Virus record (IMG/VR): IMGVR_UViG_2851938318_000007
DNA: 60,122 nucleotides
DNA from: a virus
Taxonomy: Duplodnaviria; Heunggongvirae; Uroviricota; Caudoviricetes
Reading direction: 5' to 3' (one strand)
Shown here one piece after another: positions 12,001 through 18,000 of the stretch; the stretch's first letter is position 1, and each line of letters begins with the position of its first letter. The position numbers are program-made.

Positions 12001-15000
12001 GACCCAAATTATTGCTGGAGGGAGGTTGATCCAGTTGATGCTGCAAATGAAGCTATGAGTTATCACAACGATTAATGTCAGGAGGCCGCCCGAAAGGGCG
12101 GTAATGAATGGTCACATTATTTAGAAAAAATATCCGCGAAAGAGTAGAACAACAGAATTTCTGTTTCTCATTCTGTTTATCGTGTTGATGATACCGATAT
12201 CCCCGTTAATCCTAGTCTGGATAATCGGAAAAATAATTGAGCCAGTTATTGAATTGTATAACGACGTGGTATGGGCGTCATTCAACACACTGCACAATAA
12301 AATTAATCCGTATAAGGAAAACTGATATGGCAACTTTGACAAAAAAAGAACGGGCATGGTTGAACGAATTACAGGAAGTTCTTGATCGCTGTCCATCACC
12401 GAAAAAAATTGGCTTTTACACCATTGGCGATAAAAGCATTTACCTGTATGACCTACGCCGCATGGATGAAATCATGGAGGCTCTTGATAATCGTTCGTCG
12501 ATGGATTGGTGTGTTGCTGTTCATGATATGAATGCAGGGTTTGATGAAAAGATTTTGTTCCCCTCATCAGTTGAAAGCACTGCGGGTTAAGGAGTAACAC
12601 ATGACCACTATTACCAAAGAACGTATTGAATTGTTCATTAAAAATCCGGTTGAAAACGGGCTTACCCGTGGTGAACAAATGGAACTGGCACGGATTGCGC
12701 TGGCATCGCTGGAAGCAGAGCCAGTTGGTGATTTTTATGAATACAAACCGGATGACTGGTAGCAGCGTTCGGCTGGAGATAAAGCGCCAAAATGGACGCC
12801 ACCCTATGCCGTTTTTCCAGCGCCCGTAGTGCCGGAAGAAATGGATTTGCTTACATGCCATCTCGATGGTGTAACTGAAACATATGCTGAGGGATGGAAC
12901 GCTTGCCGCGCTGCCCTGCTTCAGGGCAAAGGGGAGCCCGGGAAACAAGTTCGCGAATTGACAATGCTGGTTAAACAATTGGTTAGTCAACTGAAGAAAG
13001 CGAAACCGGGCTGCAAATTGCCGGATAAAGTGATGGACTACCTGGAGCGAAGCGGACTTATAAGCGTGGAGGATGTTTCACGATGACCTGGCCTGAAGCA
13101 TTCACAACGGTAGGAATTGCGATGGCGGTGGCGCTGGTTGTGTATTCGATTTGCCGCTGGGGATAAAAACGATTTGCGGGAAAAGGATAGTTAAGTAGAA
13201 TTGCTGCGGGTGCTTGAGGCTATCTGCCTTGGGCATGAACACCAAAGGCAGATAGAGAAAAACCCACCCGACTATAAATCAAAGTGTATTACCCCCATTT
13301 GTTGGACGATGAAATGGGTTTAGTTAACTATGTCGGTATCGACATGACTAAAACAACCTTAAATTGCTCGATTAATAGACAAGTAGTTTTGAAAGATTAA
13401 ATTTATGCGATCCGGTATTTTCAAGGGATAGCCTTTATGAGGTTATCTTATGGGGTTAAAACATCAAGAACAGTTGTGTTATAATACATAGAAACTAATA
13501 AGAGACGTTGCAACTATATGAATGTAATAGATTTGTTTTCTGGCGTTGGAGGTCTAAGTCTTGGTGCTGCACGTGCTGGATTTGATGTTAAAATGGCAGT
13601 TGAAATTGATCAACATGCTATTAATACTCACGCAATTAATTTTCCAAGAAGTTTGCACGTCCAAGAAGATGTTTCTTTACTAAATGCAGAAATAATTAAG
13701 GGTTTTTTTAAAAACGATATGCCCATAGATGGTATTATTGGCGGTCCTCCGTGCCAAGGATTTAGTTCAATAGGCAAGGGGAATCCTGATGATAGCAGGA
13801 ATCAGCTTTACATGCATTTCTACCGTTTAGTATCAGAATTACAGCCATTATTCTTTTTGGCAGAAAATGTTCCAGGTATTATGCAAGAGAAATATTCTGG
13901 CATTAGAAATAAAGCATTTAATTTGGTTAGCGGTGATTATGATATTCTTGATCCCATCAAGGTAAAAGCATCTGATTATGGTGCTCCAACTATTCGAACT
14001 AGATATTTTTTTATCGGTGTAAAAAAATCATTGAAGCTTGATATTTCAGATGAAGTATTTATGCCTAAAATGATTGATCCGGTTACTGTAAAAGATGCTT
14101 TGTATGGATTACCAGATATTATCGATGCCAATTGGCAATCAGACTCTGAGAGTTGGCGAACAATTAAAAAAGATCGAAAAGGGGGATTTTATGAAAAATT
14201 ATGGGGGCAGATCCCTCGGAATGTTGGTGATACAGAATCGATCGCTAAGTTAAAAAATAATATCATATCTGGATGTACCGGAACATTACATAGCAAAATC
14301 GTCCAAGAGCGTTATGCTTCCTTATCTTTTGGGGAAACTGATAAAATTTCAAGATCTACAAGATTAGATCCAAATGGTTTTTGCCCGACTTTAAGGGCGG
14401 GAACCGCTAGAGATAAAGGAAGCTTTCAAGCCGTCAGGCCGATCCACCCTTATCATCCAAGAGTGATTACACCAAGAGAAGCTGCTAGATTACAAGGCTT
14501 CCCTGATTGGTTTCGCTTTCATGTAACTAAATGGCATAGTTTCAGACAAATAGGAAATAGCGTGTCACCAATAGTTGCTGAATATATATTAAAGGGGCTG
14601 TACAATTTATTAAATAAAAGAGTACAGCCCGAATATTTAAACCATAATTCTTTGGAAGTTAGGGTATAACCTATAGTATTTATAATAGTTATCCCGTTCA
14701 TTTTCGTTTAAAGAGAACTCTTCAGCGGCTGCCTGATATGCTTCTTTATCAGGCAGTTTACTATCTAAATTTATCTTTTCTTTAATTGTTAGTGTTGGTA
14801 TTGCTATTTCTTGCACGTCTTCCCAATTTGTTGAATAAAATTGCCAGTTAGAAAGGTCGCATGCCTTAGATAACTCTATATATTCTTGTTCTGAGGAGAA
14901 AAAACCTGATATTGTCAACATGGTATGACTGCCATCATTATATTGATTTAAGGATAATGGGTAATACTGAATCTTATCCTTACGTCCTGAAAGACCACGT

Positions 15001-18000
15001 TCTATTGCTGATCTAAAAGCGTTTGTAATAATTCGTATTAAAAGAGCTTTAATCTTACGATCTGAAAGATCTGCATTTGATATCTGAAGATTAAAATCAA
15101 GATACTTTTTCCCAAGCAATGATTTTAATGAATTAATAAAAGCTTCTTTAAAAATATCTAAACTTTCTCCAACTCTACGTTGGTAATAAGAACTAGGATT
15201 TATGGGGAAGGTGACCTTCAAAATATCAAAAGAGCTTACTTTAGTACTTAGTAAGTGTATATCATCTAGATCCGTTTGTATTTTTTTCGGGGAGGCATAG
15301 TCTAACCATGTTATTGATGGTTTAGAAAAACTATAATCAAGAATAAAGTCATGAGCTGATATTAGCTTACAATCAATACAATTATAAGGCAAATTATATT
15401 TTTGTCTGATGTGAGTAGACTCTTGTTCTTCGAGAGAAATCATATCAGAAAGAGCGATACGATTATGCATGATTCTAAAATCTTCAAGCATCGGACCACC
15501 AAAACCTATATATGTATATTCTTGAATATTTAGTCTTTTGCTTAAGAGGTTTAGGCTTTCGAGAAAAATCTCTCTATCAATAGACTTATTATGCCTTAAG
15601 TGATAGGGAATGTATTGTCCAGACATCACTTCACCTCTTCAATCACCGTATCAAAGCATTGCATCCCCACATCAGAAGCGCTAGCATCTTCATGTCCAAA
15701 GAAATATTTAGATAAAATTTTAACATCTTCTTTCTCTCTGGTGAAGATTATTCGTACAGTAGAGCTTTTTTTTACTGGGGTAGGCAGCTTAGGTGTATAT
15801 CGCCACTCATTTTTGTTTCTATTAGGGTTGGACCAGTTATTTTTTTTATCTTCTGGAGTTGATTGTGGGGTAATTTCAAATAAAGATTGAGCTTCATGTG
15901 ACTGAGCTGACTTAAGTAATTTTTTCCCTTCTTCAAGATGCTCACCTTTCCACTGATTGGTGAATCGAATAAAATGCATCATCCCTTCAATCATTTTATT
16001 TCGTACATCATTGTACAATGTAGAACTAAGATCGACACCTCGTTTCGTTGTTGTTATTGGTAATTTTTCTGGGTTTTTACTGGTAAAGCGAACAACCCCA
16101 GAAATTGCTATAAATTGGGTATGAAACCTTGGTACATTAGCAAAGCCCCAACCTGTGAGATGTGTCTTATCACAATATAGAACAACGCGGTCATTGCAAA
16201 TGACAGTCCATCCAGCATCATCAGAACTCCTTTTTTCTAAAACATCATCATTGTCATCTTCTAAATTTTTATAGAAGCCAACAACTAAATCGATATCAAC
16301 ATCGTCTATTTTAGCTTTATATATGTATGGTTCTATTTTAGAATGATCAGTTATGATGTTAATCGGATTATGTTCAACAACAACTCCATTTAATTCTATT
16401 TTAAATCCTTTTTGAATAATAAATGACAATGAGTGTTTTATCTGTAAAAAGAGATCAGTAAGATATGTGCTCTCATTAAATTTTTGTGCCACATTAGAAT
16501 GGAGTTTTTTTATCTCTATAGTTGTGCCTGTTGGATTTTTGTTATCATAGTCACTCTCGTGCATCGGTATTTTCCAACCATCACCATCGATCCAATCAGG
16601 TGTTATATCTACAGTGAATGCGCCATCGGGATTATTCGATTGTATTGAGCAATCTCTACCCATTTTAAAAATGGCTCTTTTCATACCAATACCATAGACG
16701 CCAACGGTGCCTTCATTTTCTTCTTCTTTTTGATGGGGTCGTCCCATTTTAAAAGCATATTCTCGGAAGCTTTTAGGGATACCTCCGCAATTGTCTTCTA
16801 TAATAAAGACATCTTTATTAATCGTAAGTTTCGCATAAAATCCTTCATATGGTTTTGAAGTTTTTTTTGTGTCTTTTATTGTACGTAAAGCCCCATCGAC
16901 GCAGTTATCAAGCAGATCAAGTATGGCATCGTTTAAGTCGATATCTCGAGTTAGCATACTTACAAAAAATCTTTTACTAGGACTAAAGTCTGCTGTTGGA
17001 GTCGTGTTCTCAGTCATAATTTACTCTCTATGTGTTTGGGAAAATAAATACCTTAAGTGCAAATTGTTGATTTTAAACGCTTCGCATGCGAAGTCAACGA
17101 TGTTAAGAAAGAAAGTGCATGTGATCTAACAGTATGTTTTTAAAAAAAGATTAGCTTTATGAGAATTCAGGACTGAATCCCGTGAGAGGAAAATAACATA
17201 TGTTATTGTTGCATTGCTGTGTTGTTTGGGATTTGTTGCACCATTCTGGCGTTGGTATATCTAGTTCGTTGTTCATTTTGTTAATTGTACAACAGGCAGA
17301 CAACAGAGAGCTTTTAGCCTAGTTAGCTTACGAAATTAAACAACTAAGATTATCGGCGGGGAGTGGTCACCGCTACTCTTTGGCTAGGAGACTTCAACGC
17401 AACCGCACACAACCAGCTTCGGCGGGTTTTGTTTTTTCCTGGCATTCTGGTTTACAATTTGCGTGCTAGCTTGAACAACTGGCATCTGCTGCACTGCGCC
17501 ATCGAGAGATTGAGAAATGGCGCATATACAACTGGTCAAACAAACTTCTTCTGGTTTACTTCTCCCGGCGACGCCGGAGAGTTGCGATTTTCTGCATCAA
17601 ATCAAAATAGGTGAGTGGATACACGCAGATTTTAAGCGTGTGCGTAACTACGCATTCCACAAGCGTTTTTTCAAACTCCTGCAACTGGGATTCGATTACT
17701 GGACTCCGGTCGGTGGGGCGATCACGCCTCGCGAACGAGAACTGCTGTCTGGTTTCGTTGATTACCTGTGCGAATCAGTTGGTCGGGAACACACGCCAGC
17801 CCTGAGTGATGCCGCAGAGCAATACCTTAACACCGTTGCGACTCGTAGAACCCGGGATACGGCGTTGCTAAAGTCGTTTGAGGCTTTCCGCGAGTGGGTA
17901 ACCATTCAGGCCGGATTTTACACCGAGCATATTTATCCGGACGGTAGCCGTGGGCGTCGGGCAAAATCCATCGCTTTTGCGAATATGGACGAAGTCGAGT

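What the first reader, a model, noticed from the sequence alone, without database searches (positions are those of the whole stretch)
13170..17360. AT-rich cargo island: cytosine-5 methyltransferase convergent with a GHKL ATPase two-gene operon (candidate undescribed defence or restriction-like module)
A visibly AT-rich block of about 4.2 kb sits between the replication/small-gene region and the nin/Q region, a classic lambdoid cargo slot. It holds three genes: a canonical m5C methyltransferase on the + strand (13518..14669) and, on the - strand, a translationally coupled operon of a GHKL ATPase (15626..17017) and an uncharacterized partner of about 329 aa (14637..15626). None has an ordinary prophage-propagation role. 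Methyltransferase plus MORC/MutL-like GHKL ATPase neighbourhoods are associated in the literature with restriction-modification-like systems, but I do not recognise this exact trio as a named system.
Basis: partly seen in the sequence, partly recalled or inferred. Interest (0 to 1): 0.88.

Follow-up and report, generated by a model that had tools for sequence, protein, structure and literature searches.

The report
Prophage MORC ATPase–methyltransferase three-gene module
An AT-rich island in an E. coli O157-type prophage carries a conserved, widely mobile three-gene set (a cytosine DNA methylase, a true bacterial MORC ATPase and a methyltransferase-shaped partner) that looks like an uncharacterised, apparently nuclease-free restriction-like defence module and a bacterial relative of the MORC/DNA-methylation silencing machinery of eukaryotes.

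Summary
A ~4.1 kb AT-rich island (about 13266-17393; GC 0.31-0.38 against ~0.5 in the flanks) holds an m5C MTase (13518-14669, +). It is convergent with a translationally coupled pair on the minus strand: a GHKL ATPase (15626-17017) and a 329-aa partner (14637-15626).

MORC is directly upstream of the partner in 80/80 species-level loci from at least 10 phyla. About 78/88 loci also have an adjacent DNA MTase. In 48 it belongs to a dedicated, co-evolving m5C clade. In 23 the pair sits inside DISARM class 1, next to the adenine MTase. Of 53 viral contigs, 51 hold the full trio.

No nuclease domain is detectable. PADLOC v2, NCBIfam and the literature searched name no such system; a 2008 comparative study noted MORC-methylase operons only in general terms.

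Most likely this is a methylation-coupled, ATP-driven restriction-like module. The phenotype, the MTase target and the partner's substrate are untested. I rate it a new variant of a known kind, of moderately high interest.

The parts
13266..17393 (.). AT-rich cargo island replacing the hokD locus found at this slot in related lambdoid prophages
   Evidence: GC 0.31-0.38 against ~0.5 in the flanks. Flank homology to other E. coli prophages ends at ~13265 and resumes at ~17394, with hokD between the flanks elsewhere. The island is present, >=99% identical and single copy, in 173 of 5426 complete E. coli genomes.
13456..13485 (+). Promoter-like site upstream of the MTase (TTAAAA-18-TATAAT preceded by TG)
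   Evidence: Consensus scan and sequence. This is a consensus match only: the number of sites found in the region is not above the shuffle expectation.
13518..14669 (+). [not shown]
   Evidence: PF00145 2.6e-61. PADLOC MTase_II 2e-98. TIGR00675. Residues 1-367 match PDB 3G7U almost exactly (E 1e-254). Motifs DLFSGVGG, GGPPCQGFS, AENVPG and GNSV are visible in the translation. The protein was detected in vivo.
14637..14669 (.). 33-bp overlap of the convergent 3' ends of the MTase and partner genes
   Evidence: Coordinates. A convergent overlap of 4-50 bp is the commonest geometry of the trio in other species (26 loci) and on viral contigs.
14637..15626 (-). PF20553 (Methyltransf_35) partner: class-I SAM-methyltransferase-fold protein, 329 aa
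15626..17017 (-). Prokaryotic MORC-type GHKL+S5 ATPase, 463 aa
15626..15628 (-). TGATG stop/start overlap coupling MORC and partner translation
   Evidence: Sequence read. The pair overlaps or abuts in all 80 species-level loci.
17070..17097 (-). Best promoter-like site for the MORC-partner operon (TTGACT-16-TAAAAT), overlapped by the 14-bp palindrome CTTCGCATGCGAAG (17080-17093)
   Evidence: The palindrome is not conserved upstream of the pair in other loci, so it is a local feature of unknown meaning.

Best explanation
The island is a self-contained, horizontally mobile, methylation-coupled restriction-like module carried as a prophage moron.

Shown here. It has three parts. (1) A canonical m5C DNA methyltransferase from a dedicated clade. 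(2) A prokaryotic MORC ATPase (GHKL+S5) with all ATP-binding motifs. (3) Translationally coupled to the MORC, a class-I SAM-methyltransferase-fold protein (PF20553) whose SAM-site and motif-IV residues are invariant. MORC and partner are an obligate pair. The pair almost always sits beside a DNA methyltransferase gene, either an m5C enzyme or, in DISARM, the adenine methylase.

Inferred. The m5C enzyme marks resident DNA as self. The MORC dimer together with the SAM-bound partner forms the ATP-driven arm that acts on DNA lacking the mark. The associated methylase family varies while the pair stays the same, so I suggest the pair reads the methylase, or a generic unmethylated/flipped-base state, and not a sequence of its own. 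This would resemble Type III, BREX and DISARM systems, where the modification subunit guides restriction.

No nuclease domain is detectable. The most likely effector act in the stand-alone trio is therefore MORC-type ATP-dependent clamping or compaction of unmethylated incoming DNA, blocking its replication and transcription. In DISARM the same pair would hand over to DrmABC.

The pair is transcribed antisense to the prophage early operon from its own promoter, as expected for a lysogen-expressed moron. The MTase lies in the phage's early direction, so progeny DNA could be protected.
For: Gene identities. MORC signature motif as defined in Iyer 2008: found in 86/88 proteins against 1/2000 shuffles.

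Obligate pair: MORC is immediately upstream of the partner in 80/80 species-level loci, with a TGATG overlap in the window and Mantel r 0.78.

MTase coupling: 48 loci have the dedicated m5C clade, about 7 have another m5C clade, and 23 are in DISARM next to DrmMI. The MTase co-evolves with the pair (r 0.51, p 0.0005) and its TRD is unusually conserved (40% mean identity). Genes are interlocked by 3' overlaps or gaps of 15 bp or less.

Mobility and defence context: E. coli, Yersinia and Pseudomonas Pf prophages, integrase islets, insertion inside a type I R-M, and neighbours such as McrA-like HNH, Abi_2 and Vsr. 51 of 53 viral contigs carry the full trio.

Asymmetric decay as expected for R-M-like systems: L147 has a frameshifted partner with an intact MTase. 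In strain F6294 the MTase was lost only together with two thirds of the partner.

Conservation of the catalytic-type residues in both proteins, including the DISARM clade. No nuclease family at E<=1 in Pfam, and no PADLOC hit. The MTase protein is expressed in the lysogen.

Established knowledge, not tested here: eukaryotic MORCs dimerise on ATP, entrap and compact DNA, and silence foreign DNA. GHKL ATPases occur in validated defence systems such as GHKL-Shedu.
Against: No phenotype exists for this or any homologous locus, so defence is inferred from context only.

Pair-only loci occur (about 10, mostly cyanobacteria). An adjacent MTase is therefore not obligatory, and the pair is evidently not lethal without one nearby.

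The partner keeps every residue expected of an active methyltransferase. That is not required of a mere sensor or adaptor and may mean its chemistry, with an unknown substrate, is central.

The N-box acidic residue is Asp, not the usual catalytic Glu, in 87/88 proteins, so ATP turnover may be slow or switch-like.

About 130 C-terminal residues of the MORC and about 85 of the partner have no assigned fold match, so a cryptic nuclease is not excluded.

An EDL933 study ascribes that strain's strong phage resistance to another island (OI-172) and DefenseFinder reported nothing here. It did not test this locus.

The Mantel correlations are partly confounded by shared phylogeny.
Confidence: 0.5

Rival explanations
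1. It is a conventional R-M system whose restriction enzyme is an unrecognised ATP-dependent two-subunit endonuclease. MORC + PF20553 would cleave unmethylated DNA through a cryptic active site, or the MORC module itself would nick DNA.
For: The gene logic is that of a Type II R-M: an MTase convergent with, or in an operon with, a two-gene 'R' unit, often with Vsr. It shows selfish-element-like mobility and asymmetric decay. Unassigned C-terminal regions exist in both proteins. The literature cited reports topoisomerase-II-like DNA-modifying activity for plant and human MORCs that needs additional factors. Iyer 2008 proposed that MORCs assist restriction nucleases.
Confidence: 0.2
2. It is a compound DNA (or RNA) modification module and not a restriction system. 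PF20553 would be a second active methyltransferase that MORC loads or activates, adding a second mark alongside m5C. The purpose would be epigenetic control or protection of the element's own DNA from host restriction.
For: All SAM-binding and catalytic-type residues of the partner are invariant across 88 loci. The fold is closest to nucleic-acid base methyltransferases such as Trm1, RsmD and RlmI. The pair always travels with another DNA MTase. No nuclease is present. The module is carried by phages, which often encode protective methylases.
Against: The module occurs equally in chromosomal islets and inside bona fide defence operons (DISARM, type I R-M islands), where an extra protective mark has no obvious use. 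No PADLOC DNA-MTase model matches the partner even at E<=1. An ATPase of the MORC type is not known to be needed by any methyltransferase.
Confidence: 0.13
3. It is a mobile mutation-avoidance kit. A MutL-like ATPase would travel with a cytosine methylase (and often Vsr) to repair T:G mismatches from m5C deamination.
Against: Vsr is absent from the window and from most loci. One clade of the pair is built into DISARM beside an N6-adenine methylase, where deamination repair is irrelevant. This idea gives the methyltransferase-fold partner no role. Structurally MORC3/MORC2/SMCHD1 are far closer than MutL.
Confidence: 0.05
4. The genes are independent neighbours: an orphan phage methylase next to an unrelated two-gene system, juxtaposed by defence-island clustering.
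For: Pair-only loci exist. The associated MTase family is not always the same. PADLOC sees only an MTase.
Against: A DNA MTase is adjacent in about 89% of species-level loci. Gene ends overlap or gaps are 15 bp or less. The MTase clade co-evolves with the pair. The position between DrmMI and DrmA is fixed in 23 DISARM loci. 51 of 53 viral contigs hold the complete trio.
Confidence: 0.03

Closest known systems
Prokaryotic MORC / paraMORC R-M operons (Iyer, Abhiman & Aravind 2008, PMC2292703)
   Same: The ATPase carries the family-defining GhXhhpXXRhl motif and a GHKL+S5 architecture. It is linked to cytosine methylases and Vsr. That paper mentions a minority of MORC operons with methylases but no helicase, some with a second GHKL.
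   Different: That work is purely comparative. The text available to me does not describe the PF20553 methyltransferase-fold partner as the obligate MORC companion, the dedicated m5C clade, or the DISARM-embedded clade. Most MORC operons described there include SF-II helicases and nucleases, which are absent here.
DISARM class 1 (DrmD, DrmMI, DrmA, DrmB, DrmC)
   Same: It is a methylation-based defence without a proven nuclease. A clade of the same MORC + PF20553 pair is inserted between drmMI and drmA in 23 species-level loci and a Microvirga plasmid.
   Different: The window has none of DrmA, DrmB, DrmC or DrmD. DISARM papers read here do not mention the pair.
BREX and Type III R-M
   Same: A methyltransferase marks self and is thought to guide an ATP-dependent, non-classical restriction activity. 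BREX has no recognised nuclease.
   Different: There is no PglZ, BrxC, BrxL or Res helicase, and PADLOC shows no match. The ATPase here is GHKL/MORC, not AAA+/Lon or SF2.
HEF_HK / Response_reg_2 gene pairs with C-5 methylases (Bellieny-Rabelo et al. 2021, PMC8011034)
   Same: A GHKL (HATPase_c_3) protein plus a small partner sits beside C-5 cytosine methylases and R-M genes, and is interpreted as paraMORC-related.
   Different: Neither PF19191 nor PF19192 matches the window proteins or the second GHKL. The partner here is a methyltransferase fold, not a receiver-like domain.
GHKL-containing validated defence proteins: Shedu type I-D / paraMORC3 (VcSduA) and MzaB of the Mza system
   Same: A GHKL ATPase domain controls an anti-phage activity. 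There is a weak NCBIfam similarity to MzaB.
   Different: VcSduA has a fused DUF4263 PD-(D/E)xK nuclease, which is absent here. The MzaB match is 12 bits against a cut-off of 850, so this is not a member.
Eukaryotic MORC2/MORC3/SMCHD1
   Different: The window protein has no CW, coiled-coil or hinge domains. The N-box has Asp where those proteins have the catalytic Glu. The partner is a SAM-MTase-fold protein with no known eukaryotic counterpart.

Membership tests
C-5 cytosine DNA methyltransferase (PF00145 / Type II MTase) | Profile match above the curated threshold | tested here: met
   PF00145 208 bits against a cut-off of 22. TIGR00675 157 against 100.65. PADLOC MTase_II 2e-98.
C-5 cytosine DNA methyltransferase (PF00145 / Type II MTase) | Catalytic motifs: I (FxGxG), IV (PCQ Cys nucleophile), VI (ENV), X (GNSV) | tested here: met
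   DLFSGVGG, GGPPCQGFS, AENVPG and IGNSVSP are read in the translation. The sequence matches crystal structure 3G7U.
C-5 cytosine DNA methyltransferase (PF00145 / Type II MTase) | Methylation activity and target sequence | not testable with these tools
   The TRD has no characterised relative: M.HaeIII aligns only over residues 1-200. SMRT methylomes of STEC do not detect m5C.
MORC ATPase family (Iyer et al. 2008 definition) | Four GHKL ATP-binding motifs | tested here: met
   N38/D41, D75xGG79, G106xxGxG111 and G164T are 100% conserved in 88 sequences.
MORC ATPase family (Iyer et al. 2008 definition) | S5-fold transducer domain with a conserved basic residue | tested here: met
   [not shown]
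MORC ATPase family (Iyer et al. 2008 definition) | Signature GhXhhpXXRhl motif in the S5 domain | tested here: met
   G269WTVICNDRVV. The motif is present in 86/88 family members and in 1/2000 shuffles.
MORC ATPase family (Iyer et al. 2008 definition) | Catalytic Glu four residues before the N-box Asn, and ATP hydrolysis | tested here: inconclusive
   The position is Asp (D34) in 87/88 sequences. Whether Asp supports hydrolysis cannot be tested here.
PF20553 Methyltransf_35 / class-I SAM-dependent methyltransferase | Profile match and Rossmann-type MTase fold | tested here: met
   [not shown]
PF20553 Methyltransf_35 / class-I SAM-dependent methyltransferase | SAM-binding motif I glycine loop, motif II acidic residue, motif IV catalytic Asp-aromatic | tested here: met
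   G41-F-G43-G44, E66 and W107-L-D109-Y110 sit at the ends of predicted strands 1, 2 and 4. They are 97-100% conserved.
PF20553 Methyltransf_35 / class-I SAM-dependent methyltransferase | O-methylation, as the family name claims | tested here: inconclusive
   The nearest structures are N- and C-methylating nucleic-acid enzymes (Trm1, RsmD, RlmI/RlmO). O-MTases rank no higher than others. The substrate is unknown.
Classical Type II restriction-modification system | A cognate restriction endonuclease with a recognisable nuclease domain | tested here: not met
   [not shown]
DISARM | Core DrmA helicase, DrmB (DUF1998) and DrmC (PLD) | tested here: not met
   These are absent from the window around the island. 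PADLOC DrmMII hits are generic m5C similarity. Only homologues of the pair are found inside DISARM elsewhere.
HEF_HK / Response_reg_2 paraMORC-like systems | PF19191 and PF19192 domains | tested here: not met
   There are no such Pfam hits at E<=1.
Shedu type I-D (paraMORC3) | C-terminal DUF4263 PD-(D/E)xK nuclease | tested here: not met
   No DUF4263 hit and no PADLOC hit.
Mza system (MzaB) | NCBIfam NF041932 above its cut-off, plus MzaA/C/D/E neighbours | tested here: not met
   12.4 bits against a cut-off of 850. There are no such neighbours.

The most novel reading that the evidence does not exclude
The MORC + PF20553 pair is a nuclease-free bacterial 'epigenetic silencing' machine. Guided by a DNA methyltransferase, a true MORC clamps and compacts DNA that lacks the self methyl mark. 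The SAM-dependent partner supplies either the licensing signal or a second, inhibitory methylation. The pair would be a portable add-on that different methylation-based immune systems (stand-alone m5C trios, DISARM) have plugged in. It would be the direct prokaryotic antecedent of the MORC-DNA-methylation silencing axis of plants and animals.
Probability: 0.25. Interest if true: 0.85.

Novelty: new variant of a known kind. Interest (0 to 1): 0.68.

Why it matters
Bacterial MORCs were proposed in 2008 as the ancestors of the eukaryotic MORC chromatin silencers. No bacterial MORC system has been characterised in any paper I could find, and a 2021 paper states that they remain poorly understood.

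This locus gives a minimal and tractable case. It has three genes, sits in E. coli O157:H7/O111 prophages, and its methylase already has a crystal structure (3G7U). The family is large: the partner family has 2,211 clusters at 50% identity and the ATPase has more than 5,400 hits.

It would test how a methylation-based system can exclude DNA without a nuclease. The same open question hangs over BREX and DISARM. It would also explain two unannotated genes that sit inside a sizeable clade of DISARM class 1 operons.

Practically, current defence-finders report these loci as an 'orphan' or 'incomplete' R-M. Defence repertoires of EHEC, Yersinia, Pseudomonas Pf prophages and many environmental bacteria are therefore under-counted.

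Tried and rejected
1. Named-system match. PADLOC v2, NCBIfam and PHROGs gave only a generic MTase and 'unknown function'.

2. Sequence relatives with solved structures. Neither the partner nor the MORC has any, either as single sequences or as profiles. The only marginal hit was MORC3, E 0.03.

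3. A conserved operator or methylation-site palindrome upstream of the pair. The window has CTTCGCATGCGAAG in the promoter spacer, but nothing comparable is conserved in about 130 other loci, so I rejected it as a family feature.

4. A PD-(D/E)xK reading of the partner's invariant D231...E283-K/R. I rejected it because E283 lies in a predicted helix and the spacing and pattern do not fit.

5. paraMORC2 membership. Its ExxxH motif is absent: the only invariant His, H299, has Val or Ile at position -4.

6. HEF_HK/Response_reg_2 identity was rejected.

7. The afdb50 fold library was unavailable. The BFVD search gave only generic MTase folds with TM <=0.4.

8. The supplement of the 2008 paper held no usable gene lists. 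The original DISARM paper was not held.

9. Inferring MTase specificity from TRD similarity failed, because there is no characterised relative.

10. The EDL933 defence paper neither lists nor tests this locus.

11. Literature searches on accession numbers, PF20553, GHKL + O-methyltransferase, and bacterial/prokaryotic MORC + phage defence found nothing specific.

Full report
**Observation.** The window holds the three ORFs as described. They are a 383-aa protein on the + strand (13518-14669) and, on the - strand, a 463-aa protein (15626-17017) followed by a 329-aa protein (14637-15626). The junction on the minus strand reads AAG-TGA-TG-TCT, so the stop of the first gene and the ATG of the second share one base. 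Homologues all start MSG..., which supports the ATG at 15626 over the GTG at 15629. The MTase and partner genes converge and overlap by 33 bp.

GC falls to 0.31-0.38 between about 13250 and 17250, against about 0.5 on both sides. Searching E. coli genomes with the two flanks joined showed that homology to other lambdoid prophages ends at about 13265 and resumes at about 17394. Related prophages carry hokD in that position. The island is thus about 4.1 kb, and the slot is a true variable cargo slot. The host element is a Rac-like prophage at ttcA; replication and small early genes lie to the left, and DUF1367/DUF1364/Q-like genes to the right.

The island is present in 173 of 5426 complete E. 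coli genomes, always single copy and >=99% identical. The rows sampled were mainly O157:H7 and O111. PGAP calls the genes 'DNA cytosine methyltransferase', 'O-methyltransferase' and 'ATP-binding protein'.

- the glycine loop GFGG after strand 1;
- E66 after strand 2;
- W107-L-D109-Y after strand 4;
- an N-terminal Y8/R11/N13/K14/R18 cluster.

Neither minus-strand protein matches any nuclease family, any PADLOC model or any NCBIfam model. Neither has a sequence relative in the PDB.

**Conservation of the neighbourhood.** I first looked at gene neighbourhoods of distant homologues in Leptospira, Yersinia, Methylomonas, Gemmatimonadetes, a cyanobacterium and metagenomes. I then scanned one genome per species with the partner profile, which gave 80 loci from at least 10 phyla, and analysed them with my own HMMs and clustering.

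MORC lies immediately upstream of the partner in 80/80 loci. Contexts fall into three classes:
- 48 of 88 non-redundant loci have an adjacent m5C MTase of one dedicated clade. About 7 more have an m5C MTase of another clade. Across all 55 MTase-linked loci, Vsr is next door in 14 and a second, longer MORC-like GHKL in 9.
- 23 loci have the pair inserted in DISARM class 1 in the fixed order DrmD > DrmMI > MORC > partner > DrmA > DrmB > DrmC. A Microvirga plasmid annotated by PGAP as DISARM shows the same. These pairs form one tight clade, with 83% mean MORC identity within the clade against 39% to the trio clade. That implies one capture followed by horizontal spread.
- About 10 loci, mostly cyanobacterial, have the pair alone.

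The MTase is physically interlocked with the pair. There are 26 convergent arrangements, typically with 4-50 bp 3' overlaps, and 15 co-linear ones, typically with gaps of 15 bp or less. Pairwise distances co-vary: MORC-partner r 0.78, MORC-MTase r 0.51 and partner-MTase r 0.42, all p 0.0005. The dedicated MTase clade is unusually uniform, with 48% mean identity overall and 40% in the TRD region.

On IMG/VR viral contigs, 51 of 53 loci carry the full trio. A filamentous Pf prophage of Pseudomonas carries it too; its describers scored the locus as an 'incomplete RM' because PADLOC saw only the methylase. The partner family comprises 2,211 clusters at 50% identity, all single-domain proteins of about 330 aa. 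The ATPase search returned more than 5,400 hits.

**Decay patterns.** One viral locus has a frameshifted partner beside an intact MTase (L147). In E. coli F6294 a single deletion removed the MTase together with two thirds of the partner. Both fit an R-M-like asymmetry, but they are only two events.

**Mechanism.** Three things are shown. This is an obligate MORC + SAM-MTase-fold pair. The pair is almost always coupled to a DNA methyltransferase gene. It is mobile and embedded in defence contexts.

The rest is inferred. The MTase marks self, and the pair is the ATP-driven arm acting on unmarked DNA. The pair keeps its character while the associated methylase changes (two m5C clades and an MmeI-like adenine enzyme). 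I therefore favour a Type III/BREX/DISARM-like logic, in which the methylase (or a generic unmethylated state) guides the pair, over independent sequence reading by the pair. With no nuclease detectable, the likeliest effector act is MORC-type clamping or compaction of DNA. In DISARM the pair would feed into DrmABC.

The invariant catalytic-type residues of the partner argue that SAM binding, and possibly methyl transfer to an unknown substrate, is essential. This is the least understood step. I put 0.5 on the overall restriction-like reading, and about 0.25 on the specific nuclease-free silencing version.

Rival explanations are:
- a cryptic ATP-dependent endonuclease (0.2);
- a compound modification module (0.13);
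- a mobile Vsr/MutL-like repair kit (0.05), disfavoured by the DISARM/adenine-methylase clade and the absence of Vsr in most loci;
- mere juxtaposition (0.03), largely refuted by the statistics.

**Comparison with what is known.** The closest description is the 2008 comparative-genomic proposal that MORC and paraMORC ATPases function in R-M systems. It includes a remark about MORC operons with methylases but no helicase, some with a second GHKL. The four-gene variants I found fit that remark. The text available does not identify the methyltransferase-fold partner, the dedicated m5C clade or the DISARM link.

A 2021 paper describes a different GHKL + partner + C5-methylase family (HEF_HK/Response_reg_2) and states that bacterial MORCs remain poorly understood. 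Those domains are absent here. GHKL domains occur in validated defence proteins (GHKL-Shedu; MzaB), but membership tests for those families fail. DISARM papers and a 2025 survey of YprA/DISARM-like systems do not mention the pair. No experimental paper on these genes was found. The EDL933 defence study neither lists nor tests the locus. I could not check current DefenseFinder, PADLOC or REBASE releases.

**Verdict.** The interpretation as a candidate restriction-like defence module is substantially right, but it needs the corrections above. The thing is best filed as a new variant of methylation-based immunity built on a true bacterial MORC. It was predicted in outline in 2008 and has not been characterised experimentally in anything I could find. 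Interest is moderately high (0.68) for four reasons: its breadth, its tractability in E. coli, its bearing on how nuclease-free methylation systems work, and its link to the origin of eukaryotic MORC silencing.

Noticed in passing
window 13100-13266: The left edge of the island retains a fragment matching the 'sokW antisense RNA' region of phage 933W and the hok/sok region of other prophages. The island appears to have replaced most of a hokD-type type I toxin-antitoxin locus that occupies this slot elsewhere.
   Followed up: partly
window 17080-17093 (and 17192-17207): A perfect 14-bp palindrome, CTTCGCATGCGAAG, overlaps the -35 hexamer and the spacer of the best promoter-like site for the MORC-partner operon. 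A 16-bp palindrome, AATAACATATGTTATT, lies about 190 nt upstream of the start. Neither is conserved in other loci. They may be local regulatory sites.
   Followed up: yes
L014 4570-6990; L050-L088 (about 23 loci): A tight clade of the MORC + PF20553 pair is built into DISARM class 1 operons between drmMI and drmA in Alpha-, Beta- and Gammaproteobacteria, Planctomycetota and Myxococcales. The DISARM papers I could read do not mention these two genes.
   Followed up: partly
L023, L025, L026, L027, L033, L036, L037, L042, L043: These are four-gene variants. A second, longer (546-610 aa) GHKL protein sits next to the m5C MTase, and 8 of 9 also carry the MORC S5 signature. It may be the 'paraMORC1' of Iyer 2008. 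Its C-terminal extension is unassigned.
   Followed up: partly
L021 6616-13709: A Rhodoferax locus has two divergent copies of the MORC-partner pair flanking a single m5C MTase.
   Followed up: no
L095 (E. coli O157:H7 F6294) 5001-5369: This is the only E. coli genome with a damaged island. One deletion removed the MTase and the C-terminal two thirds of the partner together, leaving MORC intact.
   Followed up: yes
window 13083-13166: An unannotated 27-codon ORF encodes a hydrophobic peptide (MTWPEAFTTVGIAMAVALVVYSICRWG) just left of the island, overlapping the end of the preceding gene.
   Followed up: no
L009/L015/L019 (Scytonema, Nostoc): In cyanobacteria the pair occurs without any adjacent methylase, inserted between NADH-dehydrogenase (Proton_antipo_M) genes. 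It may work with the conserved orphan methylases of that phylum.
   Followed up: partly
L001 19998-20851 (window about 19100-19950): Downstream of the Q-like gene the prophage carries tRNA-Ile and tRNA-Arg genes and a TerB-family protein, followed by a SASA-family carbohydrate esterase. This is further non-propagation cargo.
   Followed up: no
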